Source: Tubiluchus corallicola
Taxonomy: Eukaryota; Animalia; Priapulida
Direction of reading: 5' to 3'
NCBI GenBank assembly: GCA_030141605.1
Contig: JAQGDQ010000424.1
Location: 124,001-188,000 of the forward strand
Length of the DNA: 64,000 nucleotides
How positions within the stretch are numbered: the first letter of the stretch is position 1; every line of letters starts with the position of its first letter. The position numbers were made by a program, and so were the translations under genes. Of this stretch, positions 14,317 to 57,287 are shown piece after piece. Under the pieces are notes generated by a model. That model searched no databases and was not told the DNA's origin. It was given only the letters and a program-made list of their open reading frames with translations.

Positions 14317-14762
14317 GTGAGTTTTCTTTCATTTTTCTAGGTTGTGAACCTTTGTCTTCGCAACGTTGACTTCACAGCCGTCAGAGTTGTAATTTGCCCC
14401 GATTTTAGCGACAAGAGTTTGAATACAACGGTGCGCTTCCTGTCTGCTATCATCAAACAGAGAAAGAGTTGATTTTTTTAAAGACGTTGCTACTAGTATT
14501 AGAAATGATAGTGATAATGATACGGTATGCATTAGTGCTGTGAATGGATGTTATGGTAGTGAGTGCGTTAATGTCATTATATGTGCGGGGTGCGGTCAAT
14601 TCCAGGATATTTTTGAAAAGTGCCACAAGTAGTTTCAACTAATAGAATTTGTGTGGGACTTTGTTAAACGTAGCCCTGTACTGTTCGTTTGTAAACTGTC
14701 TAACTTTATACAAAATGCGAAAAATTTATCCGGCCAAAAACAACCTTAAACATCCAGCCTTT

Positions 14763-25673: not shown

Positions 25674-25829
25674 GCTGACCACATTTGTTACTCCGTGCTG
25701 TGCATCTTTTCCTACGTCGCCGCCGGAACGGACAAGCAGAAGCAAGAAGAGGCCATCTCCAGAAACAAGGAGGCGTTGAAGGCCAGAATAGAGGGTTCCG
25801 TGTCGAGGCCCAAGTTCCCGCAGTATTAG
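25674..25829 (+). CDS. MADD: MADD terminal coding exon
   Basis: Acceptor tttatctattcag. ADHICYSVLCIFSYVAAGTDKQKQEEAISRNKEALKARIEGSVSRPKFPQY* matches MADD AHEICYSVLCLFSYVAA. Confidence 0.95.
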   Translation, partial: ADHICYSVLCIFSYVAAGTDKQKQEEAISRNKEALKARIEGSVSRPKFPQY

Positions 25830-25934: not shown

Positions 25935-26067
25935 TAAAATTACAGAGGGAGGGAGAGAGAGAGAGAGAGAGAGAGGGGGGGGAGAGAATTGAAGAAGTAA
26001 CTATGGTACTGCGAGTGAGATTGTAACTGTGATGTCACTTCCCGTGGAAAATTACAGAGGAAGAGGC

Positions 26068-26139
<72 letters not shown>

Positions 26140-26245
26140 GAGAGAAATGAAGAAGTAACTATGGTACTGCGAGTGAGATTGTAACTGTGATGTCACTTCC
26201 AGTGTGATGTCTCCTCCACTGTGATGTCACTTCCCGTAGAAAATT
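25935..26245. repeat. (GA)n tracts within a local tandem duplication in the MADD 3' UTR region
   Basis: aaaattacagagg(ag)n-gaagaagtaactatggtactgcgagtgagattgtaactgtgatgtcacttcc occurs twice. Confidence 0.85.
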
Positions 26246-26719
26246 AGCAGCTAATTTGCTATTGGTTATTCAATTTTGTCCGAGTGAATGACGATCTTTG
26301 TTGATCCTCGCCGATTCTACTGCAGTATTTACATCTTATATTGGACCTTAAACATTTGATTACTAAGTACCCGGTACTGACGTACCAAATGGGTCTGTGT
26401 ATTTAACTATGTTACTGACAAACATTCCATAAGTTATATTGTAAGGACTTGCAATACAATACCACAAATGTCATTGTTAACCAAAGAGTATATATTAGTA
26501 CTTGTACTGTGATTACTGTGTAAATTTAAACAAAATGAATCTATCTAGTATTGCTCTGTAGAGCCTTGTGGAGCCTCAGTTTTATTTATAAAATCTATAC
26601 ATTATTATTGATAATTGGTTACTGGGCGTAGTTGCAATGTTCTCATGATGTTCGAGTATATATATATATATTTTATTATTACTTTTTTGATTCGATGTTA
26701 TGCTTTCCTCTGCCTATGT

Positions 26720-26725
26720 AATAAA
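26720..26725 (+). terminator. Putative MADD polyadenylation signal (duplicated at 31646-31651)
   Basis: AATAAA followed by a GT/T-rich tract (ttgttggtttgtttgtattttgg), about 0.9 kb after the MADD stop. Confidence 0.45.
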
Positions 26726-29700
26726 ATTGTTGGTTTGTTTGTATTTTGGCTAATAACTTCCGTGCAGCGGAAAGATTTGTTAGATGAAATGTTTGGAAAT
26801 TAAAATGACTAAGTTTTGCTCACAGTAGAACCTTATTAAATAAATTCAACTTGACAAGAATTTTATATTGAATTACGTTTCTTTTGTCTACTGAAAATGA
26901 ATTGCACAAGTGGGTTAAAAATGGCTTCTGCTTCAGTTTTACGTGCGTTGGCTTTACGAACAGTAATTTAAAACCATTTAAGGGTCATAATTATGCTTTG
27001 ACTTTGCAAAGTAGTGTAGGTGAAATCACCTCTGCATCAGTTTCAAGCATTAACTCTGCAAGTAGTATCGTAAAGTCGTCTCTCTGCCACGTTCGTGTGC
27101 TGACTTTGCAATTTAAAATCATGGCAGTGCCAATTTTTGCATTGACTTTGACCTTTGCACTACAGTTGACAAGAATGCTCAGCAGTAACAAGTGAGAGCA
27201 ACCCGACAGTTAAACTGTGAAAAGAAAGCCAGCGGCTTGTCAGAGCCACTTTCCAACCGAATACAAATACAAGATGGCTTCATTGGATTGAACATGCGCT
27301 AAGACTACCTCAAGAATCTCTTCTTCGCTTTACGTAAAACTCTTGAAACGACATACATATAATGCAAAACGTGACGATTGTTTCGGCTACTGAAGCCATT
27401 ATTAAACTATAAATGAACCCAAAAAGAAGAATAAATAATACATTAATGATACAAAGGCACAAACTGAAACTACAAAACAACAGATTAGAATTTAACCTGC
27501 CAAAATAAAGTAGCTTGTGGTGGAAGAGAATTTCTTCCATTACAGCCTAGTTTATTTTGGTCAACACAAGTCAGTAACAATATCTAGGCCTATAGTAAAC
27601 AGCACCAATAGAGCAAGTAGTGCCACACAATTTAGTTACCACCATCATGATCATTACCGTAATTAACACAGCTGCCTTCACCATCAACACCAACAGCAAA
27701 CAATAACGTCAATAACCCCTCTCTCTCAAAACAACAAAAATAATGCAACAATTGGCTTTAAAATTAAAGTATTAACAGTTAATATCGTGCATCTAATTTC
27801 TAGAATCAGAAATTTTTCCAAGTAAACAGTGATCATACTGATAATTACCTTTTCCCACCTAAGCTTATAACAAATGTTTCCTGCAAGCCGCCATGTTCGG
27901 TGTAAGGTGCACCTGCAATTTAGCAGTTATTGCAGGCGACCACCGCAGTAAAAATTACTGTGTTATATGCTGTTAGAATGCCTATGAAAAAGAGTGCGTT
28001 TTTTAACAGCGCATGGTAAACCCCTGGAACATATTACCAGAACACGTGGTTTTGATTCTGTTGTGTTTTGTTTCTCTGGGAAGGCTATTGCTAACTTTAA
28101 AATAAAGTTAAAACACAAGAAAACACTTTACTTACATAAAGCTGAAAAAAATTTGTCTAAAATGTTTGTATCGCTGACTGTTTTTGTGCACACGGAGCTT
28201 GTGTCAGCAGCACCGCTGTTTAAAACTTGAAAAATCAACCTCTCCAGATCGTTAAGTGCAGCCATTTTGACAATAGGTCGCTCGAAACAAGTTTAGATAA
28301 CATTGCATGAAGTTTGAAAAAAGAATCAGAGTATTCGTAGCAAACACTTCACAAATTGCAAAATTACAGCGTGACATCTGAATAAGATTTTTAAAAATAC
28401 GTTTTTTTCTCCAGTCAGTGGTGCACCCTGGGAAAGGTGACATTTTACCAGTTTATGCGAACATTTTAAAATATTAAGAATTTCAATTTCTAATCACATA
28501 AGTCTTTCAAACAGGTAAGCATAATGCTAAGTGGTATAATTATGTGTGGAATGTTTTTAGGGACATACTGTAAAGTTGCCCTTTCTTCCCCCCTAAAAAC
28601 AATTCGCCGTAGAAAAGAAAATCTTTAATTGCAGCCTGTTAAGGCCAGTGTGAACATGACTTAATAAATATTAATTTTGTAGCGAAGGTGGCTCCATCTA
28701 GCTAGAAAGTTTAAAGTGTGGGCATTGACATAGTTACGTTTTTCATTTATGCTGTGAACATGTGAGTGAACATGTGTCTTGTACAAGCTAGTGAAATTTT
28801 CATTTAGATATATGCCGCAACGATGTAAGTTTACTTCTATTAATTTTTATTTTGATTTATTCATTGATTCATTATTCATTAACAATCTAGTTAAATTAGC
28901 CAATGTCAGTCACCTTTGCCTTTCTATTTTTTTAAACACTGCAGAAATAAAGATCAGTGGTTTATATGAAAATTAAACTGAGACTTTTCAAGTTATCATA
29001 AATGCCTCTCAGAGACACTAACACAACCAGTAAAAGGAGGTACTGTAGTACGTAAACACCTTCTGAGTATTGAAAACTATATTTTGAAATTTTAAAATGG
29101 AATGATTTGCTCTGAAAATGTACTTTTTACAAAGCATTTACCCTGGAGGGCTGCCACCCTCCGTCTCGTATATCTAGGGCGTCAGTGTTTGTTATGAACA
29201 CTATTGCATTAATCATGCAACCAGCCACGCCCTGTTGTCAGTTATGCATGGACGGAATCTAGGCAACCAAACGACGTCTAAGCAACTGTTTACGTCAAAC
29301 CCACAACACGTATACACATTGCGGTAAATTGATTTTCATAACATTACGTTGCTGTAGCGAAACTTCGAACACAGAGTACAGTTAGCGAGCGTTATATAAA
29401 CACATAGGTTGAATGTTGTTGAAACAGCAAGTTTGTCGATAAACGACAGCCACACGAAGTGTGAATCGAATATTCCTGTTTTACTAATAATGTGATATGA
29501 AAATTATTGAAGTTGCAAGCCAGTTTGCTGGCATTATATAAGTGAAACTGCAAGGCGAATTTCAATACAATAGTCAACAACAATAGACTCTCTACAAGGC
29601 TTTGTTGCACACAAGATAGACGTGATTGTAGTGATTGGTTCACATGGATTGTGACGTAACACTTTCACCTACCGCCATTGCTACAGTGCCAATAAATTTC

Positions 29701-29785
29701 TGATCATAAAGCGACTGTAATTTTCGACCCGCTAAACTCAATCGCGTGAAGTCACTTCCTGCTCCTGTTCCGGTAATCTTGGATC

Positions 29786-30013
29786 ATGGGGTGCGTGGCT
29801 TCTTCTTCCACTAAGGTCCGGGAAATATCTCTGGAAAAGCAACCACAACACGAAACAGACAAGACTAAGAACAAAAAGAATGTCCAGAAAAGCTCGCAGA
29901 ACGGTGTGGTGAAAATTGAGGACACGGTTATGACAAAAACCAGCAAAGAACTGGGTTCGTCGGTACAACAACAACCGTTTGGGGGCATTGGAGACCATAG
30001 CCTTGGAGTAACG
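29786..30013 (+). CDS. Duplicated calpain exon 1 (MGC acylation motif); putative exon 1 of a calpain-MITD1 chimera
   Basis: ATG in atcATGg context, 76 codons MGCVASSSTKVRE...DHSLGVT, donor ACG|gtatga in phase 0. It shares 72/76 aa with 34371-34598. Confidence 0.7.
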
Positions 30014-30294
30014 GTATGAGCAAACAAAATGCTTGACTGTCTGACAGTGTGACGGACTGATTATCTGATTGACTGACTGGTTGATATTCAGACTAGCTGA
30101 CTGACTGACTGACTCATTAACTGAGTGACTGACTTACTAACCAACCGACCGACTGAATTGCTTACTGACAGACTGACTGTCTGACTGGCTGGCTGACTGA
30201 CTGACTGACGACTGACTGTCGTTTTTTCATTTAAGCTTTTGCCCCGTCTCTGTTTATTCAATAGACCTACGTTTATAAATTTTCTTTTTTGCAG

Positions 30295-30927
30295 GAAGGT
30301 ATTCAACTCCTACTGGATGCAATGCGCAGCTCCTCGGAAGAAAAGCGTAAGAAACTTCGCACTAAAATATCCGAGTACATGGATCGTGCAGAAGTTATAA
30401 AAGCAATGGTGGAAGAAATCAAAGCAAACGGTACTTACCACGAACAAATAAAAATCGAGAACAATGCCGTCGGTTTCAGCTATGACCGTTTGTTTGGTCG
30501 ATTCCTGGACGAAAGCGTGGAGACGGTGGATATCGACGATCCGTACATTCGAGCCGTTCACCAAATATACAACTTCCTCCGTTTTTGCGAACTGCTCGTG
30601 AAAAAGTGTCCTCATTTGAAGCGCATTCAGTTGATAACCGGTCAAGACCAGTACAAACAGCACGAGAAACTGCAAGAACTAGCGCTGAGTCTGGCAGACG
30701 AGGGCGTAAAGTTGATCGTTCAGTATTCCAAAACCATTCACGATCGCGAGATTCGGTTAAACACGGGTTGGATAATCAAACTCGGGCGCGGTTTGGACAT
30801 TTACAAAGCCCCTCCCGGAAAGTTTAGCCTCGGATATTGTGACTACGAGTTGAGAAGATGTCACGAGACCACAGTTGACATATTCCATCAGAAAGGCAAG
30901 CAGAAGAGTGTGGCGTTTGTGGAATAA
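30295..30927 (+). CDS. MITD1: MITD1-like exon (partial MIT domain plus PLD-fold C-terminal domain), lacking its native first exon
   Basis: Acceptor ttttcttttttgcag, phase 0, 210 aa open to [85 protein letters not shown] closely follows MITD1. An in-frame TAG at 30262 excludes upstream extension. Confidence 0.92.
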
Positions 30928-31188
30928 ATCGACCCAGACGACCATTGTAAATCTTCTGTTGCATGAATAATTTACATTCCGATAACACTACTCGAATGGT
31001 GTCATTCCATGTTATCCACACGTTTAAAAATTTTTAATAAGTTGCTTTACTACAGCAGCTTTACACTTATGCTTTTAATTGTTCGTTTAGTATTGATGAT
31101 GCAAAATCGTTTGAAGTCGAGTGTTCACCATAGATTTAAATTCCACCCGTGCTCAAACAATGGCCGCCATATACTAATTCAAATTCAA

Positions 31189-34100
31189 ATTGGTTATTCA
31201 ATTTTGTCCGAGTGAATGACGATCTTTGTTGATCCTCGCCGATTCTACTGCAGTATTTACATCTTATATTGGACCATAAACATTTGATTACTAAGTACCC
31301 GGTACTGACGTACCAAATGGGTCTGTGTATTTAACTATGTTATTGACAAACATTCCGTAAGTTATATTGTGAGGACTTGCAATACAATACCACAAATGTC
31401 ATTGTTAACCAAAGAGTATATATTAGTACTTGTACTGTGATTACTGTGTAAATTTAAACAAAATGAATCTATCTAGTATTGCTCTGTAGAGCCTTGTGGA
31501 GCCTCAGTTTTATTTATAAAATCTATACATTATTATTGATAATTGGTTACTGGGCGTAGTTGCAATGTTCTCATGATGTTCGAGTATATATATATATTTT
31601 ATTATTACTTTTTTGATTCGATGTTATGCTTTCCTCTGCCTATGTAATAAAATTGTTGGTTTGTTTGTATTTTGGCTAATAACTTCCGTGCAGCGGAAAG
31701 ATTTGTTAGATGAAATGTTTGGAAATTAAAATGACTAAGTTTTGCTCACAATAGAACCTTATTAAATAAATTCAACTTGACAAGAATTTTATATTGAATT
31801 ACGTTTCTTTTGTCTACTGAAAATGAATTGCACAAGTAGGCTACATGGGTTCTGCTTCAGTTTTACGTGCGTTGGCTTTACGAACAGTAATTTAAAACCG
31901 TTTGTGTGTCATAATTATGCTTTGACTTTGCAAAGTAGTGTAGGTGAAATCACCTCTGCATCAGTTTCAAGCATTGACTCTGCAAGTAGTATCGTAAAGT
32001 CGTCTCTCTGCCACTTTCGTGTGCTGACTTTGCAATTTAAAATCATGGCAGTGCCAATTTTTGCATTGACTTTCACCTTTGCACTACAGTTGATAAGCAT
32101 GCTCAGCAGTAACAAGTGAGAGCAACCCGACAGTTAAACTGTCAAAAGAAAGCCAGCGGCTTATCAGAGCCACTTCCCAACCGAATACAAATACAAGATG
32201 GCTTCTTTGGATTAGACAAGCGCTAAGACTACCTCAAGAGTCTCCTCTTCGTATAGCTTTACGTAAAACTCTCGAAACGACAAAAACACCAAGACGGGGT
32301 CAGCTAATGACGTACATACATATAATGCAAAAACTGACGATCGTTTCGGCTACTGAAGCCATTATTAAACTATAAATGAAGCCAAAAAGAAAAATAAATA
32401 ATACATTAATGATGCGAAGACACAAACTGAAACTACAAAACACGAATAGGAATTTAACCAGCCAAAATAAACTAGCTTGTGACGGAAGAGAATTTCTTCC
32501 ATTACAGCCTAGTTTGTTTTGGTCAACATGAGTCAATAACAATATCTAGGCCTGTAGTAAACAGCACCAATAGAGCAAGCAGTGCCACACAATTTAGTTA
32601 CCACCATCATGATCATTACCGTATTTAACACAGCTGCCTTCACCAGCAACAGCAACAGCAAACAATAACGCCAATAACCCCTCTCTCTCAAAACAAAAAT
32701 AATTCAACAATTGGTTTTAAAATTAAAGTATTAACGGTTAACATCGTGCATCTAATTTGTAGAATCAGAAATTTTTCCAAGTAAACAGTGATCATACTGG
32801 TTAATTACCTTTTCCCACCTAAGCTTATAACAAATGTTTCCTGCAAGCCGCCATGTTCGGTGTAAGGTGCACCTGCAATTTAGCAGTTATTGCAGGCGAC
32901 CACCGCAGTAAAAATTACTGTGTTATATGCTGTTAGAAAGCCTATGAAAAAGAGTGCGTTTTTTAACAGCGCATGGTAAACCCCTGGAACATATTACCGG
33001 AACACGTGGTTTTGATTCTGTTGTGTTTTGTTTCTCTGGGAAGGCTATTGCTAACTTTAAAATAAAGTTAAAACACAAGAAAACACTTTACTTACATAAA
33101 GCTGAAAAAAATTCGTCTAAAATGTTTGTATCGCTTACTGTTTTATTGCACACGGAGCTTGTGTCAGCAGCACTGCTGTTTAAAACTTGAAAAATTAACC
33201 TCTCCAGATCGTTAAGTGCAGCCATTTTGACGGTAAGTCGCTCGAAACAAGTTTAGATAACATTGCATGAAGTTTCAGAGAATCAAAAAAGAATCAGAGT
33301 ATTCGTAGCAAACACTTCACAAATTGCAAAATTATAAATTACAATGTGTCATGTGCATAAGATTTCTAAAAATACGTTTTTATGTCGAGTCAGTGGTGCA
33401 CCCTGGGAAAGGTGACATTTTACCAGTTTGTGCGAACATTTTAAAATATTAAGAATTTCAATTTCTAATCACATAAGTCTTTCAAACAGGTAAGCGTAAT
33501 GCTAAGTGATATAATTTTGTGTGGAATGTTGTTTTGGGACAGACTGTAAAGTTGCCCTTTCTTCCCTTCTAAAAACAATTTGCCTTACAAAAGAAAATCT
33601 TTAATTGCAGCCAGTAAAAAGAGGTACTGCAGTACGTAAGCACCTCCTGAGTATTGAAAACTATATTTTGAAATTTTAAAATGGAATGATTTGCTCTGAA
33701 AATGTACTTTTTACAAAGCATTTACCCTGGAGGGCTGCCACCCTCCATCTCGTATACCTAGGGCGTCAGTGTTTGTTATGAACACTATTGCATTAATCAT
33801 GTAACCAGCCACGCCCTGTTGTCAGTTATGCACGGACGGAATCTAGGCAACCAAACGACGTCTAAGCAACTGTTTATGTCAAACCCACAACACGTATACA
33901 CATTGCGGTAAATTGATTTTCATAACATTACGTTGCTGTAGCGAAACTTCGAACACAGAGTACAGTTAGCGAGCGTTATTTAAACACATAGGTGAATGTT
34001 GTTGAAACAGCAAGTTTGTCGATAAACGACAGCCACACGAAGTGTGAATCGAATATTCCTGTTTTACTAATAATGTGATATGAAAATTAATGAAGTTGCA

Positions 34101-34807
34101 AGCCAGTTTGCTGGCATTATATAAGTGAAACTGCAAGGCGAATTTCAATACAATAATCAACAACAATAGAATCTCTCTCTGCAAGGCTACAAGATAGACG
34201 TGATTGTAGTGATTGGTACTTATGGATTGTGACGTAACACTTTCACCTACCGCCATTGCTACAGCGCCAATTAGCAATAAATTTCTGATCATAAAGCGAC
34301 TGTAATTTTCGACCCGCTAAACTCAATCGCGTGAAGTCACTTCCTGCTCCTGTTCCGGTAATCTTGGATCATGGGATGCGTGGCTTCTTCTTCCACTAAC
34401 GTCAGGGAAATATCTCTGGAAAAACAACCACAACACGAAACAGACAAGAATAAGAACAAAAATAATGTCCAGAAAAGTTCGCAGAATGGTGTGGTGAAAA
34501 TTGAGGACACGGTTATGGTAAAAACCAGCAAAGAACTGGGTTCGTCGGTACAACAGCAACCGTTTGGGGGTATTGGAGACCATAGCCTTGGAGTAACGGT
34601 ATGAGCAAACAAAATGCTTGACTGTCTGACAGTGTGACGGACCGATTATCTGATTGACTGACTGGTTGATATTCAGACTAGCTGACTGACTGACTGACTC
34701 ATTAACTGAGTGACTGACTTACTAACCAACCGACCGACTGAATTGCTTACTGACAGACTGACTGTCTGACTGGCTGGCTGACTGACTGACTGACTGACGA
34801 CTGACTG
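31189..34807 (+). repeat. Tandem segmental duplication, copy 2 (continues into the intact calpain gene)
   Basis: Direct repeat of 26261-30218. The ORF track shows paired near-identical ORFs (26884/31823, 27994/32954, 29786/34371). Confidence 0.95.
34371..34598 (+). CDS. Calpain exon 1 (N-myristoylation/palmitoylation motif MGCVAS)
   Basis: ATG, 76 codons, donor ACG|gtatga in phase 0 matching exon 2. MGxxxS consensus with Cys3. Confidence 0.8.
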
Positions 34808-36623: not shown

Positions 36624-36767
36624 AAAGACAAAAATCGCCTCATTAAAGAAATTGGGAAACTGGGATATGGGGAGGTGTGGAACGACGCAGACTTTGCAGC
36701 TGATGATCGCGCCCTCTATTACAGTAGCACGTCTGTTCCGGAGAATGTAAAATGGTTACGACCAAAG
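36624..36767 (+). CDS. Calpain exon 2 (start of CysPc domain)
   Basis: Acceptor gttttcag, donor gttagt. KDKNRLIKEIGKLGYGEVWNDADFAADDRALYYSSTSVPENVKWLRPK contains the calpain D-x-x-F...LY...W-x-RP pattern. Confidence 0.9.
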
Positions 36768-37195
36768 GTTAGTATTACAGTAGGCGCAGCTTAATAGACT
36801 CACGGTTAATAGACTCAATCGCTTAATTGACCCAAAAACGCCTATTAAGGGCCGCTTCTATTCGAATGTATATAAAAACTGTCGGTAATTGACTCAAATA
36901 ACTCCGTATAACTGACTCGATATTTTTGTTTCACATGCTTCAATAAGACACTTTCGTGTGACCAACAAGCTTTTATGACTTTTATATCATCTTAGGTCGC
37001 TTTTGTCCTATAATATACATAGAAACAATCATGTTAAGTACCGTTTTGTCTGTAAGCAGGAACGTTTATCATACGCTAATTATGATAGCCTAATGGTTTG
37101 CTTTGACCTGTCCGTCCACTGCAATTAACCTCGTTACCCAAGAATTCCTGGAAGCGGGACAGACAGAGAGAGAGAGAAGAAGAGAGAGAGAGACG

Positions 37196-37240
<45 letters not shown>

Positions 37241-37343
37241 TGGGGAGTGAGCAAAGTAAGAAAAAGAAGGAAAGAAGGGGAAAATAACAAATAGATAAAA
37301 GGATTAAGGAGAGGCAAAGTGGAGAGAAATAGGAGACACGTAC

Positions 37344-37511
37344 TTGCATCGTTCCATTCTCTAGACTTCAGTTGAAGTGTGCTAGTCTTTATTTCAGCGA
37401 AGGCATAGTAAATGTGTGTACACAGTGATGGATCAATATTAGACGGTTGAAATTTTCCAATGCCTGGTCTATACTGTGACCAGTTTGTAAAATAACACCC
37501 TACAATCTTAC
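37344..37511 (-). pseudogene. Isolated inverted copy of chitinase exon 2 with flanking intron (fragment about 37190-37778) inside calpain intron 2
   Basis: Reverse complement of about 56747-57330. Same peptide [20 protein letters not shown]...EWNDA with both splice sites intact. No other minus-strand chitinase exons were seen. Confidence 0.85.
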
Positions 37512-38042
37512 CTGAAAAAAACAAAAATTATATCAATCTCATCAAGTGGCCAGTATCTTGGTAAACGTATATACTAATAATGCCTGCAAACCAAAACCGT
37601 CCATAAGTCGGAATAGTCAAAACTGTGTCATGATGCTTCAAGGTAGAAAGTACCAAAAAAAATTTCAAATGTCATTTTTCGTTTTTAATAAAAAGCAACA
37701 CTAAATATATTGGACTTTTATATTCTAGCATCAAATTATCAGAAAGTGTTCAAAAATATTAGAAATTAAATTTTATAAATTTTATAAGTGTTTTATTGAA
37801 TAACAAAACATGTTAAATTACTGACCACAATTGACCAGGTGTGTATAAATAAATCAAATCAACTAGGCAAAAAAAGAAACCCCTGTTATTCCACTTATAT
37901 TCTTCTTAATCTTGTACACGTTACGTGAAGAATAGTAGTTACTGATCTCACATTAAGCATAAGTAACAAGGATGATATTAGTGGACAGATCTATGTGTTG
38001 CAATCCCAATGCATGTAACTGAAATTACATTGATTACTTTAG

Positions 38043-38174
38043 GATATCAGCAGTAAACCGGTCCTAATGGCTGGAGGTGCCACAAAAGACGACATTCAGC
38101 AAGGAAATCTGGGTGACTGCTGGTTTCTCTCCTCCTGTGCAGCTATTGCTAGAGAACCATCCCTCATGTCAAAG
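38043..38174 (+). CDS. Calpain exon 3 (catalytic Cys)
   Basis: DISSKPVLMAGGATKDDIQQGNLGDCWFLSSCAAIAREPSLMSK with the QGxLGDCW active-site motif. Donor AAG|gtcagt. Confidence 0.95.
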
Positions 38175-39130
38175 GTCAGTGTCACTTCTTATGTCACAGG
38201 TCAGTGTCGTTTCTCATGTCACAGGTCAGTAACACTTCTTATGTCACAGGTCAGTGTCAGCCCTCATGTCACAGGTCAGTGTCACTTCTCATGTCACATG
38301 TCAGTATCACTTCTCATGTCGCAGGTCAGTGTCACTTCTCATGTCGCAGGTCAGTGTCACTTCTCATGTCACAGGTCAGTATCACTTCTCATGTCGTAGG
38401 TCAGTGTCACTTCTCATGTCGCAGGTCAGTGTCACTTCTCATGTCACAGGTCAGTGTCACTTCTCATGCCGCAGGTCAGTGTCACTTCTCATGTCACATG
38501 TCAGTGTCACTTCTCATGTCACAGGTCAGTGTCACTTCTCATGCCGCAGGTCAGTGTCACTTCCCATGTCACAGGTCAGTGTCATTTCTCATGTCTCAGG
38601 TCAGTGTCACTTCTCATGTCACACGTCGATGTCACTACTCATGTCACAGGTCAGTGTTACTTCTCAACTTCTCATGTCACATGTCAGTGTCACTTCTCAT
38701 GTCACAGGTCAGTGTCACTTGTCATGTCACAGGTCAGTGTCACTTCTCATGTCACAGGTCAGTGTCACTACTCATGTCACAGGTCAGTGTTACTTCTTAA
38801 CTTCTCATGTCACATGTCAGTGTCACTTCTCATGTCACAGGTCAGTGTCACTTCTCATGTCACAGGTCAGTGTCACTTCTCATGTCACAGGTCAGTGTCA
38901 CTTCTCATGCCGCAGGTCAGTGTCACTTCTCATGTCACAGGTCAGTGTCACTTCTCATGTCACAGGTCAGTGTCAGTTTTCATGTCACAGGCTAGTGTCA
39001 CTTCTCATATCACAAGTCGATGTCACTACTCATGTCAGAGGTCAATGTCGCTTCTCACGTCAAATATCAGTGTTGCTTCTTATGCAAAAGGTCAATGTCA
39101 TTTCTCGCATCAAAGGTCAGGGTCATTTTC
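38163..39130 (+). repeat. 25-bp minisatellite derived from the calpain exon 3/intron 3 junction, >30 copies
   Basis: Unit ctcatgtcacag|gtcagtgtcactt. The first copy is the real exon end (ctcatgtcaaag|gtcagt). The array decays towards 39130. Confidence 0.95.
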
Positions 39131-39467
39131 TCTGCAAGCCAAGTTTGGTCTGTTCTAAGACTGGTATAATGGCTAGGATAACTGCACGGCATGCAGAAAA
39201 TCCATAGTTCGAGTCTCAGTGTAGGTGCAAAATTTTTCAACCGTTCTAATTTAGTAATACTTTCGTGAGCCTGTAAGACTGAAAATTTGAACTAAATTAA
39301 ACTGTAAGTATTATGTGGGCGAAGCTTCTGGATAGAGCGGAGCTTTAATTGTTACTTTTCCATTAAATGCACTTAAACGCAAACGACTTTAAGTAAATTA
39401 ATTTTACACAAAAAACGAATCTAGAAATATCAACAACGTATCTTTTCAGTTGTCTTACTTTTTTCAG

Positions 39468-39661
39468 GTCATGCCTGATAATGTTGTCTTGTACGGCGAC
39501 GGATACTACGGCATTGTTCACTTCCGGTTTTGGAGATTTGGTGACTGGGTTGATGTGTTTGTTGACGACTTACTACCGGTTGTTGATAACAGACTCATCT
39601 ATGCTCACGCAGTGGACCAGAATGAATTCTGGGTAGCATTAATTGAAAAAGCCTATGCCAA
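39468..39661 (+). CDS. Calpain exon 4
   Basis: [44 protein letters not shown]. Acceptor ttttcag, donor gtgagt (phase 2). Confidence 0.95.
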
Positions 39662-39806
39662 GTGAGTAGCTGCAAAAAGGTTTGCTGTTATTTATGGGAA
39701 AGCTGTGAAGCTACTAAGCACGCTCGCCAGGTGGCAGCTGCTGTATTCAGTTTCTCACTGGTGCATGCACTGTGGAGAGACAAAGCACTGTGGAGAAAGC
39801 ACATAG

Positions 39807-40060
39807 TAATGACGATGATGATGATGACAACGACGATGATGATAATGATAATGGTGATGACGATGATGATAATGATGAAAGTGATTGCAATGATGATAAA
39901 GATAATGATGATAGTGATGATGACAATGATGATGACGACGACGATGATGTGATGCCGATGACAATGAGGATGATGATAATGATGAAGGTGATGATGATGA
40001 TAAAGGTTATGATGATAACGATGATGACGATGATGATGAAGATGATGATGACGACGACGA
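39807..40060. repeat. Imperfect (GAT)n microsatellite
   Basis: Direct reading. A similar (GAT)n/(GTT)n tract lies at 48210-48705. Confidence 0.92.
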
Positions 40061-40648
40061 GATTGCAAACTGGAATTAAACCTTTCAAAATTAAGCCTTA
40101 TATAATGGTAGAACCTACTTATTTTCTTGCGATTGTGTTGGAGCTAAAATGTAGCTCATCACCAGGGGTAGTCCCTGAGATACTGCACCACCAGTCGTTC
40201 CAGTTCCCATTCAAAATCATGTGTGTGCAAATAGGGGTGAGCATCGAACATTAGATTCAAATGAGTTTTTTAGTTCGAATTCGATTAAAACGTTCTTTAT
40301 TATTAAAACGTTTGAAACTTCACGCAAGTAGCATAATTTAGCTGTGATTTCTCTGCACAATTTTTAAACAAATTATTAGTGGTTTTACCGCAGAGCAAAA
40401 TCGAGCAATATGCACGACCTTTGTAAGATCGCTTTTTGCTGGTGGCTCAAAAACTTGCTCGAAAATCTTTCAAACTCAATTCCAGTTCGATTCGAATGGA
40501 AAGTCACAAATTCGATTAGATTCGCTTTGTGGTAGAAACCCCTAGCAGCAAATACGTTGTCTATTGTTGCAAAGATTAATCATCAGTTAAAAAGGTTTCC
40601 CGGCTGGTCCACACCTACATTTGAAGTGACGTCTGGCCTACGTAGCAG

Positions 40649-40982
40649 CTGTAGCGGATAGCCCTATAGGCTGAATAGGCTGAAGCCTAAGGCCCGGGAT
40701 CAAAAGGGGCCCGGCAAAATAAAATATAGAAAAAAGTTTTTTTTTCAAAAGTCAGTCACTATATTTCAAATCGGGTTTACACAAATCAAGTTTACACAAT
40801 TCACGTTTACGCAGTTTAAGTTTAAGTTCAACATTTCAGTTTCCGAATTTTTCTGGGGGTAAAGTCAGTTATAATTTCTGAAAAGTCCATTTTTTCAACA
40901 TATGTGACTGAATATGTAGCAACATTTAAAAGGCCCGTTCCAAGCTCAAGCCTAAGGCCCATAAAATCATAATCCGCCGCTG
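40649..40982. mobile_element. hAT-like MITE with 8-bp target-site duplication
   Basis: cgtagcag at 40641-40648 and 40983-40990 flanks imperfect TIRs ctgtagcggat / atccgccgctg. Confidence 0.75.
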
Positions 40983-41046
40983 CGTAGCAGACATCACAAC
41001 TGAGACAGACATATCTGTAGACCAGAAAATGTCATTTCTTTTGCAG

Positions 41047-41218
41047 ATTACATGGTTCTTATGAAGCCATTGAAGGTGGTCATGCAAAGGACGCTCTGGT
41101 GGACTTGACCGGTGGTCTTGCGGAATGCTACGAAATCAACGAAACAACGATACCTGAACTGTATAGACATTTGCACAGAGCAGCACAAAATGGAGCCTTT
41201 ATCACCTGTTCCAAAAAG
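41047..41218 (+). CDS. Calpain exon 5
   Basis: LHGSYEAIEGGHAKDALVDLTGGLAECY...GAFITCSKK. Acceptor ttttgcag, donor gtagta. Confidence 0.93.
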
Positions 41219-41307
41219 GTAGTATGCCCCCCTACTCCCCCTCCCCCCAGAAACCATCCAGCAATTCTCACCCTTAGCCAAGGGATTACATTAATTTAAT
41301 GGTTACC

Positions 41308-41710
41308 AAGGGCGTATCTAGACTTTATGACACCCTAGACTGATAATTTAGTGCCGCCCGTCTCTATTGTGAATTTATGGTTACTTATGCAATGAGCAGT
41401 TTAAGCAATTACTTGTGGTGTATTAGAAGCAGTATTAATCTAGTGTCTACTACGTGGTCATTATTAATTACATGTACTTGCATAACACTTATATTTAAGC
41501 AGGTTGCACAACTGCTTGTTGTGTATTACCTTGCACCTGTTCGTTATGTGGCACTTATATAAAAGCTGCCCTCGGTAACTGGCTGTGATGTGTTATAAAA
41601 TGTACCCTTTACATGAATATGTAAATTTTCCGAGGAGACTAAGAATTTTTTCTAAAATGTGACCTGTGACGCCCTCAAACTTTGGCGCTCTAGGCTATAG
41701 CTGTATTAGT
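41308..41710. mobile_element. MITE family member (partial copy about 2417-2550; inverted relative about 35458-35810)
   Basis: Shared gggcgt..agacttta..gccctaggctgata..attgtgaatttatggtt and gtgacgccctcaaactttggcgc segments. Confidence 0.65.
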
Positions 41711-42542
41711 TTTACATCACTAGTGAGAGTTATTTGCACATAAACATAGTTAGTGTTCTGTCTCCAAAAATGTTGCTATGTTCGTTTGGTTTTTATTATG
41801 TCTTTAGATTTTTATATTTTTTCTCCAATTAACTTATATTTCCGTTGCTTGTTATAACACTTTTGCTCTTTCATCTTTATCATTAATGTACAATTCGTAT
41901 ATATTATACGGGTGGCTAGATTAGATGTTTGTCCACCACCCCGTCCCTATAAACTCTTTAGTTTATTGTATCAACAAACTAGGGATGTTATGTTTGATAA
42001 ACTAAATTAAATGCTTCTGCTTGAAAACCTTAATATAGCTGCCTTAGGAGCTAATATCTGTTGAAGTTGTTATTATTCGGAAAAGATGAATTTAACTATG
42101 TTGCTAACTGTAAAATATTCCAATGTATACATGACTTTATATTACGTACTAAACGCTTCCAGTAGTTTCTATCTGATATGAAATGCATCAGTCTTAAATT
42201 TTCGTACATTAATATTTTCTAACCGCCATTTTCTACTAATGTCTAATGTAATCTTGTAGTAAAACTTGTCAGCTTGTGTAGTTATAGTCTATTCTTACTG
42301 TAAATGTTCTTGTAAATAGTGTATAAAGACTGTTGTGGTGAGGATCCTATATCATGTTGTTCAAACTGTCTAATCCAATCCTAAATAAATTATGTTTAAA
42401 CCAACTAATTCTTTAGTAAAGTATAAGAGACAAGAAAAAGAAAGTGAATTGAATTGAATTGCTTCTGGGCAAACTATAGTCATTCTAATGCAGCACTTAC
42501 CAATGTTTTTAACTTTTATCAATGTGACTCTTCTTTCTTCAG

Positions 42543-42700
42543 GGTAACTGGAGAGATGCAAATGAAGCAGACGAGTACGGTCTTGTAGCTGGTCATGCCT
42601 ACACATTGACCGCTGTCCAGAAGGTTGTCGGTCATTCGTTAGTACGAGTACGAAATCCTTGGGGCAACGAAACCGAGTGGAAAGGAGCTTGGAGTGATGG
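42543..42700 (+). CDS. Calpain exon 6 (catalytic His and Asn)
   Basis: [52 protein letters not shown](G) with GHAY and RNPWG motifs. Donor gtgagt, phase 2. Confidence 0.95.
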
Positions 42701-43326
42701 GTGAGTGCTTGTGGGATCACTAAATTAAAGGAGCTTGGAGTGATGGGTGAATGCTTGTGGGATCACTAAATTAAAGGAGTTTGGAGTGATGGGTGAGTGC
42801 TTGTGGGATCACTAAATTAAAGGAGCTTGGAGTGATGGGTGAGTGCTTGCGGGCTCACTAAATTAAAGGAGTTTGGAGTGATGGGTGAGTGCTTGTGGGA
42901 TCGCTAAATTAAAGGAGCTTGGAGTGATGGGTGAGTGCTTGTGGGATCACTAAATTAAAGGAGCTTGGAGTGATGGGTGAGTGCTTGTGGGATCACTAAA
43001 TTAAAGGAGCTTGGAGCGATGGGTGAGTTCTTGTGGGATCACTAAATTAAATGAGCTTGGAGTGATGGATGAGTGCTTGTGGGATCACTAAATTAAAGGA
43101 GCTTGGAGAGATGGGTGAATGCTTGTGGGATCACTAAATTAAAGGAGCTTGGAGAGATGGGTGAATGCTTGTGGGATCACTAAATTAAAGGAGCTTGAAG
43201 TGATGGGTGAGTTCTTGTGAGATCACTAAATTAAAGGAGCTTGGAGTGATGGGTGAGTTCTTGTGGGATCACTAAATAAAAGGACCTTGGAGAGATGGGT
43301 GAGTGCTTGTGGGATCACTAAATTAA
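42681..43326 (+). repeat. 46-bp minisatellite derived from the calpain exon 6/intron 6 junction, ~14 copies
   Basis: Unit aaaggagcttggagtgatgg|gtgagtgcttgtgggatcactaaatt. The first 20 nt are the last 20 nt of exon 6. Confidence 0.96.
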
Positions 43327-43660
43327 ATGGCTGACTGTAATTTCAGAAACAAAATCAAAATTGCGAAATCTAAATTATGAAATCTAAATAAAGTATTGTT
43401 CTCATTGGAAGTAACTAGAAAGTTGAAATTTGGCAGATTGGCGGAAGGATATTTGGAAGTCAACGGTAAATAGAGTTCTAAAGGACGTATGCTGACAGTT
43501 GGGCAGAAAAAATAAATAAATGCTTCGCATTCTGGACGAGTTGCTAATCAGTCATGTTTACGTCATTACAGTGACATCATGCGAGAACAAGTAGATGCGA
43601 ATAAATCAATGCTTCGCATTCTGGACTAGTTGCTAATCAATCATGTTTACATCATTACAG

Positions 43661-43838
43661 TGACATCATGTGGGAGCAGGTAGACGCAAATACTAAACAA
43701 GAACTGGGTCTGATAGAAAGAGGCGATGGCGAATTCTGGATGGAATTCTCTGATTTCTGTCAACATTACCAGGAGCTGACAATCTGTACACTAGGAGCAG
43801 ATTTGGACAGAGATGGGATACCTGACAAAACTGGACAG
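43661..43838 (+). CDS. Calpain exon 7 (end of CysPc)
   Basis: DIMWEQVDANTKQELGLIERGDGEFWMEFSDFCQHYQELTICTLGADLDRDGIPDKTGQ with the DGEFWM motif. Donor CAG|gtaagg. Confidence 0.92.
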
Positions 43839-44259
43839 GTAAGGGGAGCCTGTGAGATAAATGCAGGTAAATAACCTCAAGGTTAGTGTTAGATTTAGAG
43901 GGAGGGTAGCACACCGCTGAACGAGAAATACAGGGTGTCCAAAAAGTTACTATATACTTTGATTTCGAATTTTCAATTTAAATTTTTTTCCAATCTCAGC
44001 AAGTTTTTACATGAACGAAAAGGCAATTCTTGTTTTTATTTTTTTCCCTGAAAAACCGTTGTAGTCGCAGCAACAGTAAGGTTAGAAATGAGGTTCAAAA
44101 TCTGGGAAGAAGTCCTTTAGTTATCAGTGTAAGTTTAGTGGAAATTCACACCACCGTATGGACCACACTATGGCGACTTTAAAGTGATTTTACTAATCGC
44201 ACTTTTATTACTAAATCCCTCTAACATTTTTCCTAAACCTTGGAATAAGTGTAATTTCC

Positions 44260-44785
44260 AAGAAGGCTGTGTATTTTACTTAAAGCACAAGAGAACCCTT
44301 CATAAACTTTAGGCTTGAAAAATTCGTTTTGAAATTTTATATCACTTACATACTGCCTTCTTGCGTACAGGGCTTGTGTCGGAGTAACGCTGTATAAAAC
44401 ATGTAAATTTAAAGTCCCGCGATGACAGTTAGATGCAGCCATTTTGATGATAAGTCATTTTAAACAAGTTTAGATAACATTTTGGAAAGTTTGAAAAAAT
44501 AATCAGAGCATTCGTTGCGCACACGTCACTAACTAAGTAAAATTTTAAATTACTGTATCTTGTCAATAAGATTAAAAATACGTTTTTGGTTAGCGAGTGG
44601 TGCACCATGGAGTCAGTGATATTTTACCAATTGGTGAAAATATTTTAAATAATTGATAATTTTCTTTTCTAGTCACATAAGTCTTTCTAGCAGGTAAGCG
44701 AAATACTAAGTAATATAGATTTGCATGAAAGGTTTTTGGGAGATTTTTCTGAAACCTACTTCAGGTACCCCTTTTCTTGTCCTCT
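44260..44785. mobile_element. Dispersed TTAA-AGG-type element (inverted copy about 61529-62150; diverged relatives about 28100-28620 and 33060-33600)
   Basis: tcaggtaccccttttcttgtcct is the reverse complement of aggacaagaaaaggggtacctga at 61529, and the internal sequence is colinear. Confidence 0.65.
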
Positions 44786-45512
44786 AAGATCATCACGAGA
44801 CCCTCTTTGCTCATGTCTACAGCATAGCAACAGACCCCCACTTCAGGGTTAAACCCCCAACTGTCAATTGGGTTCAGGTAATGGACCGTGGAACACTTAG
44901 AAAGAATATAACATATAGAACATAGAACCTTTATTTTCTCCAACAGTAAATGCTAGTTAAATGTAAGATAATTGCAATCACGGAGCAGGGGTCACCTAGC
45001 ATCCTGCCCTTTCATACGGACAGGTTTGACAAATTAAAAATACACGGTGATGCTGCAGGTAACAAAATAATTAAAAAAGAAAAACAATACAACAAAACAG
45101 TAGTAGTAATTGTCAATAAACTACAAAATAAAAAACAATAACAAAAAAAATAAACAGACTAAAGTTAAGTATATAAATTTAAGCAATGTAATGATATCTC
45201 TATTTTATATGCGCATTGTTAACATGAGAGCAGTCTCTGCCATGTCATAATCTTTAAGACACGGTTGTAATATTGCGTTCTGAATTATCTATTAACTATG
45301 TTATAGGATCAATCACATTGTTGAGAACCATCCTGTATCTTCAAGCAAGAGAACACAGTCTGGGGTTGGGGTGGGGTGTATGGGTTGCGACAAAAGATTT
45401 GGAAACAACTTATTAACCAAAATTGATGGACAAGAAGTAAAACATTGGGTAGAAGTTGAAAGCTGTTTATAATTCTTTCAACTTATTTATGATAACAGGT
45501 GTCTACTTACAG

Positions 45513-45761
45513 GTAAAGACGATACACGGCTCTTGGGAACAAGGAAAGTCAGCTGGTGGCAGCAGGAATGATTTGAAGAAATTCGCCACAAATCCTCAGT
45601 TTTTGCTCACTCTCACTGAAGCAGACGATTTCAATCCCAAAGTGGATGACGAAAAATTGCGCGGGAAATGCAGCCTTGTGATTGGTCTAATGCAGGAACA
45701 CAGGCGATCGCAGCGTCATCTAGGAACCAAAATATTACAAATTGGTTTCGTTGTTTACAAG
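45513..45761 (+). CDS. Calpain exon 8 (domain III / CBSW)
   Basis: VKTIHGSWEQGKSAGGSRNDLKKFATNPQFLLTL...CSLVIGLMQEHRR...IGFVVYK. Phase-0 acceptor tacttacag, donor gtatat. Confidence 0.92.
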
Positions 45762-45994
45762 GTATATTTTTTAGAATGCCTAGGAATTAATTGATTTTTG
45801 TGTTGAATTTTTACTATAAAAGCCCAACATTCACATTACCGGATCCCTGTTTTCACTTCGACTTGCCAAGGTGAATTTGATGTTTTCAGCACTCATAAAT
45901 ATAGTTTACTGAACATAAAACATAAAGAGATTGAAAAATCGTTGATTCTGTACATAGGATGGAATGGCTCAAACGTAGTAGGGACGATCATACC

Positions 45995-46285
45995 GAAAAG
46001 CACAATACTAATGAAGGCACAGTGATAACGAAAGCACAATAATAACAAAAGCACAATACTAACAAAAGAACAATGATAACAAAAGCACAATAATAACAGA
46101 AGCACAATAATAACAAAAGCACAATACTAAAGAAAGCACAATACTAAAGAAAGCACAATGATAACGAGAGCACAATGATGACGAAAGCACAACACTAACG
46201 AAAGCATAATGATAACGAAAGCACAATACTAACGAAAGCACAATGATAACACAAGCACAATAGTAACAAAAGCACAATAATAACA
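45995..46285. repeat. ~16-bp minisatellite
   Basis: Unit about aaagcacaataataac. Confidence 0.85.
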
Positions 46286-46547
46286 TTTATTAGTGTCAAA
46301 AAATATATACAATACAAGGAAAAAGAAACAAGACATACAATTTCAATTTTGAAATATAATGGCACTGCAGACAAACAGAACGATTACTATAAAACAAATA
46401 TTGTTAAGTCTTCCTGTTAGTTACATTAGTTATTTAATGAAAAGTTTAATGATTAGTATTTAAAATAAATAGTCATTCATTAGGCCTCATTTTTAATGTT
46501 ATGATCATCATATATAAAAACATTATTTATATATATATATATAATTT

Positions 46548-46962
46548 TTAGAACAGGCTTTAGAACAATGGTGGGGGCGGATACAGGTTTTAGAACAACG
46601 GTGGGGCGGATACAGGTTTTAGAACAACGGTGGGCGCAGATACAGGTCTTAGAACAACGCTGGGGGCGGATACAGGTTTTAGAACAACGTTGGAGGCGGA
46701 TACATGTTTTAGAACAGCGGTAGGGGCGGATACAGGTTTTAGAACAACGGTAGGGGCGGATACAGATTTTAGAACAACGGTGGGGGCGGAAACAGGTTTT
46801 GGAACAACGGTGGGCACAGAAACAGGTCTTAGAACAACGCTGGGGGCAGATACAGGTTTTAGAACAACGTTGGGGGCGGATACAGGTTTTAGAACAACGG
46901 TAGGGGCGGATACAGGTTTTAGAACAACGGTAGGGGCGGATACAGTTTTAGAACAACGGTGG
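46548..46962. repeat. 30-bp minisatellite, ~14 copies
   Basis: Unit tttagaacaacggtgggggcggatacaggt. Confidence 0.93.
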
Positions 46963-47828
46963 GCCCATCGGAAATGCAGTTAGGGTGTCTGAGTGAGCGG
47001 TGTAAGCTCCCCAGCGAGGTCCACTCGGACAACAATGCATTTTACTACATTTTAGACCACTTTTCTGTCTTCTAGAAGCCACTTCCTCAAAGAAGGTCAC
47101 TAGTTTAGAACACGTGTCACCTCACATTTGAATCAAAATTACATACACCATATGTTGGTGTCTCTGAGAGACATTTATCTTCAAAAGTCTCAGTTGAATT
47201 TCATGTAAACGACTGTTCTTTATTTCTGCAATGTTAAAAATTAAAATATAAAAGCAAAAGTGACTGACATTGGGTAATTTTATGAAAAGTTACATAGTTT
47301 AGTTAGATTGACAGTTATTTAGTTCAATCAAAAATATCAATGAATAAATCAAGATAAAAATTAATAGACATAAACTTACATCGTTGCGGCATATATCTAA
47401 TGATAAATTTCGCTAGCTTGTACAAGGCAATCGTTCACATATATTACAGAACAGCATAATGAGAACATAACTGGGTCAATGACTTTAAACTTTCCAGCTA
47501 GATGGAGCCACATTGGCTACAAAATTAAAATTTATTAAGTCAGGTTCACACTGGCGTTAATAGCATATATGATGTACATAACTTTCATCTGTTTTCTTGT
47601 GATACATGATCTTTACAGATATAAGGCATCTTTGGAATTTAGCAAATCGTTCTATTGCTTATAATTCAGAAAAAATATTAATTTGGTGTGTTGTAGCTGT
47701 TACTGTGAAAGGGAGGGCCCACCCCCTAATTCCGCTAATGGTTTATAAACAATGATTGTTTTACAAAATTAATCACTAGAAATTCTAAAAATTCCTGTCA
47801 TCCATCTTTTTTACGTTTAATGTTTTAG

Positions 47829-48050
47829 ACGGACGATCCTTCAAAGCGACTTTCCGTCGATCACTTTATGTACAATTACGATTCCGGAACGTCGGGTGTT
47901 TTCATAAACTACCGCGAGGTGACAGCACGATTCGAACTGCAGCCTGGTAATTACGTCATCATTCCGACAACGTTCAAACCGGACTTTCCCGGCAGTTTTA
48001 TGATTCGGGTTCATGCGGAGAAGTCCATTGAACTGAGTGAGATTCTATAA
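47829..48050 (+). CDS. Calpain exon 9 (end of domain III, stop)
   Basis: TDDPSKRLSVDHFMYNYDSGTSGVFINYREVTARFELQPGNYVIIPTTFKPDFPGSFMIRVHAEKSIELSEIL* with FINxREV and PGxYVIIPxTF motifs. Confidence 0.92.
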   Translation, partial: TDDPSKRLSVDHFMYNYDSGTSGVFINYREVTARFELQPGNYVIIPTTFKPDFPGSFMIRVHAEKSIELSEIL

Positions 48051-50843: not shown

Positions 50844-51099
50844 TGCTTGAAGAGAATGATAATATTTAATATTTATTGAGCCATTAAGGAATGAAATCAC
50901 AGAAGGCAAAGAAAAAACGACTTAAAAACGGTCAACATCGGGACAAAGAAACCACATATAAGTGGTACAATGGTTCAAACACAAAAAACGCGAACAACAG
51001 AGCAACATACACATATATTATAAACTTAATATTGCATGTGTTACACTTAGTCAGTCAATCAGGCTTGCACTGAGTTATCTCAGTCGGGCCTGTCTTCAA

Positions 51100-57183: not shown

Positions 57184-57287
57184 GTACGTGTCTCCTATTT
57201 CTCTCCACTTTGCCTCTCCTTAATCTTTTTATCTATTTGTTATTTTTCCCCTTCTTTCGTTCTTTCTCTTACTTTGCTCACTCCCCA

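What the first reader, a model, noticed from the sequence alone, without database searches (positions are those of the whole stretch)
29600..31700. Candidate three-parent chimeric gene: calpain promoter and lipid-anchor exon, MITD1 body, MADD 3' end
Seen: a 970-bp unique insert (30219-31188) lies exactly between two copies of a tandem duplication. The upstream copy ends with calpain exon 1 (MGCVASSS..., donor phase 0 at 30013) and ~200 bp of its intron. The insert supplies a polypyrimidine tract, a phase-0 CAG acceptor and an intact 210-aa MITD1 exon. The downstream copy starts with MADD 3' sequence including an AATAAA with a GT-rich tract (31646). Splicing the 281-bp hybrid intron gives an uninterrupted 286-aa protein. 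No native MITD1 first exon was found in the window. Established: MITD1 binds ESCRT-III subunits through a three-helix MIT domain and has a PLD-fold dimerising, membrane-binding domain; MGCxxS is a myristoylation/palmitoylation signal. Inference: helix 1 and half of helix 2 of the MIT domain are replaced by a lipid anchor plus linker. This would give a membrane-tethered MITD1 variant under calpain regulation that could alter or dominantly interfere with normal MITD1.
Basis: partly seen in the sequence, partly recalled or inferred. Interest (0 to 1): 0.88.

Follow-up and report, generated by a model that had tools for sequence, protein, structure and literature searches.

The report
Accidental calpain–MITD1 fusion at duplication junction
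In a priapulid-like worm, a DNA copy of most of the cell-division gene MITD1 sits between two copies of a duplicated stretch, so that a calpain's predicted lipid-anchor exon could splice onto it in frame; it is likely a young rearrangement, and whether it is expressed or useful is untested.

Summary
The anatomy is exactly as reported. A 970-nt insert (30219-31188) lies between two copies of the MADD 3' end to calpain exon 1 segment, which are 3.4% diverged. The donor and acceptor are both phase 0 and give a 76+210 = 286-aa frame. The calpain, MITD1 and MADD assignments all hold. The insert is genomic DNA, not a retrocopy, and has no transposon ends. Close full-length MITD1 relatives (95%, 93%) have a 32-aa first exon that is absent from the window, so MIT helix 1 and 9 of 20 residues of helix 2 are lost. 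Read contigs show two near-identical versions of the insert and signs of a second left flank. This suggests the source gene lies elsewhere and the copy is young, in which case an open frame is expected without selection. Best reading: a germ-line templated-insertion cycle that made a potential chimeric gene, a known kind of event. Splicing, expression and function are untested. Two things stay unexplained: the segment copies are about ten times more diverged than the insert versions, and the second version carries two radical substitutions. An older, functional chimera is therefore not excluded.

The parts
25674..25829 (+). Last coding exon of MADD (outside the duplication)
   Evidence: PH_MADD hit upstream at 3284-3571. 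This exon's relative P0157 carries the end of PH_MADD joined to the same sequence.
26261..30218 (+). Copy 1 of the duplicated segment: MADD 3' end, whole intergenic region, calpain exon 1 and 205 nt of intron 1
28635..29026 (.). 392-nt repeat insertion found only in copy 1, about 760 nt upstream of the ATG
   Evidence: very high contig depth over it
29786..30013 (+). Calpain exon 1, copy 1 (76 codons, MGCVAS; predicted myristoylation and palmitoylation motif), phase-0 donor
   Evidence: lipidation inferred from the motif
30014..30294 (+). Hybrid intron, 281 nt: calpain donor and CTGA microsatellite, then 76 nt of MITD1 intron with its acceptor
   Evidence: splicing untested
30219..31188 (+). 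970-nt insert: genomic copy of the MITD1 second exon with intron end and 3' sequence
30295..30927 (+). MITD1 coding exon, 210 codons plus stop: second half of MIT helix 2, helix 3 and the whole PLD-like domain
   Evidence: Pfam MIT_C 7.8e-58 and MIT positions 28-65 of 66; 95% and 93% identical to P0001 and P0002; helices
31189..34807 (+). Copy 2 of the duplicated segment, continuous with the intact calpain gene
31646..31651 (+). AATAAA followed by a GT-rich tract; likely the duplicated MADD poly(A) signal (26720 in copy 1)
   Evidence: use inferred
34371..34598 (+). Calpain exon 1, copy 2 (native position)
36624..48050 (+). Remaining exons of the intact calpain (protease core and domain III)
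   Evidence: Pfam Peptidase_C2 and Calpain_III; tblastn exon map

Best explanation
A 970-nt genomic copy of MITD1's second exon sits at the junction of a 3.6-kb tandem duplication, likely made by one recent template-switching repair event, and it places a calpain promoter and predicted lipid-anchor exon in frame with a MITD1 exon that lacks half of its MIT domain. Shown: the sequence anatomy, the three gene identities, the phase match and the missing helices. Inferred steps: (1) synthesis stalled in the CTGA microsatellite of calpain intron 1, copied about 960 nt from the MITD1 locus, then resumed in the MADD 3' end, possibly on a diverged homologous chromosome; (2) the source MITD1 gene still exists elsewhere in nearly identical form; (3) copy 1 keeps the whole upstream region, so it would be transcribed, spliced 30013^30295 and ended at the duplicated MADD poly(A) site, with no downstream intron to trigger decay; (4) the 286-aa product would be membrane-anchored, unable to bind ESCRT-III tails normally, but able to dimerise through the retained C-terminal domain. 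Most likely it is a passenger variant rather than a selected new gene.
For: The insert lies exactly at the duplication junction. It keeps 76 nt of intron with an acceptor and has no poly(A) tail or target duplication, so the template was DNA. The hairpin test at its right end is negative (z 0.30) and contig depth is flat up to its ends, so no transposon ends are seen. Contigs of the duplicated segment begin exactly at 31189 in runs X1 and X2, and insert contigs begin exactly at 30219 in X2 and in X4, a second sample. Both patterns are expected where two different upstream sequences meet (inference from assembly-graph logic). The insert occurs in two versions that differ at 30311, 30685-6 and 31047. 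In the GC-matched comparison, both exon-1 copies together have about the depth of the insert: 1.12 in X2 and 1.17 in X1. That fits two copies of each. All 23 of the 23 listed variant letters I checked in the segment are the other copy's letter (32 rows of that table were not shown). Relatives have ordinary 246-aa MITD1. The pattern matches 'cycles of templated insertions' (PMC7025897, passages). Chimeric structures are common standing variation in flies (PMC4069613, passages).
Against: Timing does not fit one event simply: the segment copies differ by 3.4%, the insert versions at only 3-4 sites in about 960 nt. The exon-1 copies show purifying selection: 7 synonymous against 5 non-synonymous changes, pN/pS 0.20, P 0.007 against full neutrality and 0.04-0.07 against one neutral lineage. 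The second insert version carries L to P in helix 2 and L to W; P occurs in 0 of 120 and W in 0 of 120 homologs at those columns, which is odd for a working native gene. Which version lies where is unknown. The X2 insert contig runs unbroken into copy 2, which fits both versions having the same right flank. In X1 the segment-to-insert depth averages 1.46 over six estimates (range 1.17-1.65), midway between the two models. The tool warns that contig depth is no copy number. No contig bridges a junction by the tool's 31-letter rule: the right junction has 30 letters on one side, and the left lies in a skipped repeat. X1 and X2 are one sample and may be the assembly's own source.
Confidence: 0.58

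Rival explanations
1. An old, fixed and functional chimeric gene. The duplication is as old as its 3.4% divergence, the two insert versions are alleles of this one locus, and the chimera is this animal's main or only MITD1-derived gene.
For: Purifying selection between the exon-1 copies. Only one MITD1 path at 85% likeness or better in X1 and X2, with no 12-nt insertion among the listed rows (8 rows not shown). The X2 contig is unbroken through the right junction. With 3.4% neutral divergence the frame would stay free of stops only 34% of the time.
Against: This predicts a segment-to-insert depth of 2; observed means are 1.08 (X2) and 1.46 (X1). It needs a chance allelic difference exactly at base 30218 to explain contigs starting at 30219 in two samples. 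One allele would carry a proline in helix 2. Relatives 93-95% identical have the native form.
Confidence: 0.15
2. A reciprocal rearrangement with duplicated ends. One locus reads MADD, copy 1, insert, native MITD1 right flank; another reads native MITD1 exon 1, insert, copy 2, calpain; and the assembly crossed between them inside the insert. The calpain-MITD1 fusion would still exist, but without the MADD 3' end.
For: It has the same graph edges and depths as the best explanation, so short-read contigs cannot tell them apart (inference). It would allow the window's insert to be a mix of the two versions.
Against: The assembly as given runs through in one piece, and the timing problem remains.
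Confidence: 0.1
3. An assembly or amplification artefact: two alleles of the MADD-calpain interval were laid in tandem and joined through a piece of MITD1.
For: Segment and insert totals are about equal and the versions are 1:1, as for ordinary diploid loci. The left junction is in a microsatellite. No contig meets the bridging rule. The X4 contig over 31189 is not broken there.
Against: Contigs break at 31189 in two libraries and one carries insert plus 30 letters of copy 2. A second sample holds both exon-1 versions letter for letter (0 and 10 differences) and starts its insert contig at 30219. The leftover depth at 31157-31273 in X2 would fit a MADD-side contig of about 148, under half the segment total (that contig was not listed).
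Confidence: 0.12
4. The insert is a retrocopy or a transposon-captured fragment that landed in an older duplication.
For: The 210 codons have no intron; the insert begins with TC and has CTAA near its right end; a later insertion would solve the timing problem.
Against: It retains intron sequence and has no poly(A) or target duplication. No hairpin and no high-depth ends. A relative's ORF, P0003, also starts inside this exon on a 3753-nt contig, which suggests the exon is natively intron-free (inference). The position exactly at the junction would be a coincidence.
Confidence: 0.05

Closest known systems
Cycle of templated insertion (Li et al. 2020, PMC7025897; passages seen)
   Same: A host segment is re-replicated with a distant copied segment between the two copies; such events can insert exons of other genes.
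   Different: Described there as somatic in cancer; here germ-line in an invertebrate, and the two host copies are 3.4% diverged rather than identical.
Chimeric genes from tandem duplication in Drosophila (Rogers et al. 2014, PMC4069613; passages seen)
   Same: The duplication joins the 5' part of one gene to the 3' part of another; the paper counts 78 and 38 such chimeras in two species and notes changes in cellular targeting.
   Different: There the chimera is made from the two genes at the duplication ends; here a third, distant gene supplies the coding body.
MITD1 (PDB 2YMB, 4A5X, 4A5Z; PMC3496609 and PMC9477494, passages seen)
   Same: The whole PLD-like domain, the self-assembly region (human 88-123) and the equivalents of M69 and E73 are kept.
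   Different: Helix 1 and 9 of 20 residues of helix 2 are replaced by a 76-aa calpain leader, so neither the H1/H3 nor the H2/H3 groove would be whole; there is a 4-aa loop deletion.
MGC-type invertebrate calpains lacking EF-hand domains (P0121-P0147)
   Same: Same MGC start, leader length and domain order (protease core, domain III) in the intact gene.
   Different: Only the leader exon is used in the fusion. Acylation of these animal calpains was not tested; the listing shows it for a Plasmodium calpain (PMC2746569, title and abstract start only).

Membership tests
Cycle of templated insertion | Host segment duplicated in tandem around the insert | tested here: met
Cycle of templated insertion | Insert copied from another locus that still exists (copy-number gain) | tested here: inconclusive
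Cycle of templated insertion | Both junctions made in one event and phased on one molecule | tested here: inconclusive
   Divergences disagree about tenfold; no piece spans the stretch
Chimeric gene | Parts of two genes joined in frame with promoter and 3' end | tested here: met
Chimeric gene | Spliced transcript across the junction | not testable with these tools
   See Tried and rejected
Chimeric gene | Purifying or positive selection since origin | tested here: inconclusive
   Exon 1 pN/pS 0.20 on 12 changes, which may predate the fusion; insert versions differ by two non-synonymous changes, unphased
MITD1 | Complete three-helix MIT domain | tested here: not met
   The exon starts at residue 33; helices are 2-20, 24-43 and 47-77 in the P0001 model; Pfam MIT 28-65 of 66
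MITD1 | PLD-like C-terminal domain with self-assembly region | tested here: met
   MIT_C 1-142 of 142; alignment to 2YMB; region defined in PMC3496609. Dimerisation itself not tested
Retrogene | No intron sequence, poly(A) remnant, target-site duplication | tested here: not met
   76 nt of intron with acceptor kept; junctions show no tail or duplication
Helitron or Pack-type capture | Termini, 3' hairpin, high-copy ends (features recalled, not from a call) | tested here: not met
   Left flank ends in G, hairpin z 0.30, flat depth at the ends
N-myristoylated/palmitoylated protein | Gly2, Cys3, Ser6 motif (consensus recalled) | tested here: met
   MGCVAS in both copies; 20 of 23 full-length calpain relatives have MGxxx[ST] and 16 of 23 MGC
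N-myristoylated/palmitoylated protein | Lipid actually attached | not testable with these tools
   needs labelling or mass spectrometry

The most novel reading that the evidence does not exclude
The fusion is expressed and kept by selection as a lipid-anchored, MIT-less MITD1, while the other MITD1 version in this animal, which carries a proline in MIT helix 2, is decaying or is only an allele. The animal would then have swapped ESCRT-III-guided recruitment of MITD1 for direct membrane anchoring.
Probability: 0.12. Interest if true: 0.8.

Novelty: new member of a known kind. Interest (0 to 1): 0.4.

Why it matters
As a structural variant it is a clean germ-line example, in a rarely sampled animal phylum, of a copy-and-paste rearrangement best described in cancer, caught at the stage where it makes a ready-to-express in-frame gene by chance. 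If expression and selection were shown, it would be a natural test of whether MITD1's PLD-fold dimer can work at membranes without its ESCRT-III-binding domain. One search for MITD1 with fusion and chimeric gave 12 papers; none of the 10 listed is about such a fusion by title or abstract start. That is a narrow search.

Tried and rejected
No RNA holder listed; this says nothing about expression. No joint 30013 to 30295 appeared in the four runs laid, but X1 and X2 are DNA, X4 behaves as DNA (its contigs run unbroken through both the donor and the acceptor), and the one X6 contig (159 nt, 13 differences) does not reach the junction. Gaps in X4 cover are not used. No depth control on single-copy flanks was obtained, so copy numbers are relative only. 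No whole genome is held, so the source MITD1 locus could not be searched. A search with calpain exon 1 among longer proteins found nothing among 57 candidates (weak). No 286-aa chimeric protein was among the 120 listed of 191 MITD1 hits (two begin MG, neither is calpain-like). The EQDN deletion was rejected as a sign of decay: it lies in a loop, 7 of 120 homologs have a loop of 10-11 residues against 10 here, and the laid contigs of X1, X2 and X4 all lack these residues. Other phase-0 acceptors: 30096 and 30171 hit stops after 3 and 10 codons; 30264 would add 10 residues in frame. Helitron and retrocopy origins were rejected. Earlier scan notes: none found. Hadders et al. 2012 is not held and is known here only through PMC9477494. 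The fused protein was not folded; no complex was predicted. No supplements were read.
Full report
Observation. Self-BLAST gives two direct copies, 26261-30218 and 31189-34807, with a 970-nt stretch between them that has no other match in the window. The copies differ at 122 of 3548 aligned bases (3.4%) and by 16 indels, including a 392-nt repeat only in copy 1. Each copy holds a 76-codon exon beginning MGCVAS with a phase-0 donor. The insert holds 76 nt of intron ending in a pyrimidine tract and CAG at 30294, then 210 open codons and 261 nt of 3' sequence. The first AATAAA beyond the one overlapping the stop is at 31646, inside copy 2.

Gene identities. The insert exon matches Pfam MIT_C over its whole length and MIT only from position 28 of 66. 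Its closest relatives are two unnamed 246-aa proteins, 95% and 93% identical; the best named hit is Priapulus caudatus at 66%. A Priapulus calpain fragment is also the most identical calpain hit (81% over 72% of the query), so the animal is likely a priapulid. The relatives have a 32-residue N-terminus that is not encoded in the window. In a model of P0001 the MIT helices are 2-20, 24-43 and 47-77, so the exon lacks helix 1 and 9 of 20 residues of helix 2. The equivalents of human M69 and E73 and the self-assembly region are kept. ESCRT-III tails bind in the H2/H3 or H1/H3 grooves (PMC9477494, passages), so binding would likely be lost. The downstream gene is an intact calpain; 16 of its 23 full-length relatives begin MGC, which supports exon 1 as its true leader. 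The upstream gene is MADD.

What the reads show. Six runs were listed and four laid, all as contigs. X1 and X2 are one sample, possibly the assembly's source; X4 is a second sample and behaves as DNA. In X2 one 1002-nt contig covers the insert and 30 letters of copy 2, one short of the tool's bridging rule. Segment contigs begin exactly at 31189 in X1 and X2, and insert contigs begin exactly at 30219 in X2 and X4. In an assembly graph this is what happens where two different upstream sequences meet, so I infer a second left flank for the insert. The left junction itself lies in a skipped microsatellite and was not seen. X4 holds both exon-1 versions letter for letter. The insert has two versions differing at 30311, 30685-6 and 31047, and X1 breaks again at 31178. 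No more distant MITD1 path appears at 85% likeness, although the tool filters some records. Depth bookkeeping gives segment-to-insert ratios averaging 1.08 in X2 and 1.46 in X1, and 1.12 and 1.17 where GC content is matched. A single locus would give 2 and a second copy elsewhere would give 1. The tool warns that contig depth is no copy number, and no single-copy flank was measured, so this is a lean, not a result.

How it likely arose. The insert was copied from DNA: it keeps intron sequence and lacks a poly(A) tail and target duplication, and it has no hairpin or high-copy ends. A duplication with a distant segment at its junction is the pattern called a cycle of templated insertion (PMC7025897, passages). 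I infer a stall in the CTGA microsatellite, a switch to the MITD1 locus and a return to the MADD 3' end. The last bases of the insert contain a short repeat also present 8 nt into copy 2, as expected for a templated filler, but this is weak.

How it would work. Copy 1 keeps the whole MADD-calpain intergenic region, so its promoter would likely fire. The donor and acceptor are both natural sites, the exon is terminal, and a poly(A) signal follows 720 nt after the stop, so a stable message is plausible. The product would be a membrane-anchored PLD-fold protein able to pair with normal MITD1; in human cells the C-terminal domain is enough for self-assembly, and a mutant that cannot bind IST1 still inhibited VPS4-IST1 binding (PMC3496609, passages). 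All of this is inferred. If the copy is young, the open frame needs no selection: three random changes leave it free of stops 86% of the time, and matching phase and orientation are not rare. Flies carry dozens of such chimeras as standing variation (PMC4069613, passages).

Results against this reading. The segment copies are about ten times more diverged than the insert versions. The exon-1 copies show purifying selection (7 synonymous, 5 non-synonymous changes; pN/pS 0.20). That fits two working alleles joined recently, but it equally fits an old chimera whose leader is constrained. The second insert version has L to P in helix 2 and L to W, residues found in 0 of 120 homologs at those columns; if that version is the native gene, it looks damaged. 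The versions could not be phased. The unbroken X2 contig suggests both versions may share the right flank. These points keep the old-chimera reading at about 15% and the artefact reading at about 12%.

Verdict. The sequence feature is as described and probably real. It is best filed as a new member of a known kind: a potential chimeric gene made by a duplication with a templated insertion. It is not a full member of the MITD1 family, since the MIT domain is incomplete. Expression and function are untested. Interest 0.4; 0.8 if the fusion proves expressed and selected.

Noticed in passing
window 37158-37778 (-) and 56747-57372 (+): A 94%-identical inverted copy of a GH18 chitinase exon with its acceptor lies antisense in calpain intron 2 and ends in a GA/CT microsatellite. 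It is a second orphan exon copy within 64 kb with a breakpoint in a microsatellite, hinting that such copying is frequent in this genome.
   Followed up: partly
window 25944-26046 and 26101-26204: A 104-nt direct repeat (93%) flanked by GA runs in the MADD 3' region, ending 57 nt before the start of the duplication.
   Followed up: no
window 30135-30141: A TACTAAC branch-point-like motif inside the microsatellite of the hybrid intron; the insert's own 76 nt of intron has no YTRAY match. It could favour other acceptors.
   Followed up: partly
window 26261-26900 versus 27200-27600: Divergence between the copies is uneven: 5 differences in the first 640 nt against 34 in 400 nt in the middle, which fits constraint on the MADD 3' end or gene conversion.
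   Followed up: no
window 30420-30485: Extra unlisted contig depth in X2 and 19 unlaid letters after 30454 in an X4 contig suggest a further minor variant near the A-run at 30446-30454.
   Followed up: no
window 30457-30615: Run X6, under the same species label, has a MITD1 contig with 13 differences in 159 nt, and P0001 and P0002 differ again, suggesting deep divergence among populations or cryptic species.
   Followed up: no
window 31667: An X4 contig with copy-1 letters ends 16 nt after the AATAAA, where a poly(A) site would be expected, although the run otherwise behaves as DNA.
   Followed up: no
window 4261-5173, 14598-16327, 38034-39224, 42543-43440, 49922-50986, 62234-63900: Introns are rich in minisatellite arrays with units of 12-55 nt.
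   Followed up: no
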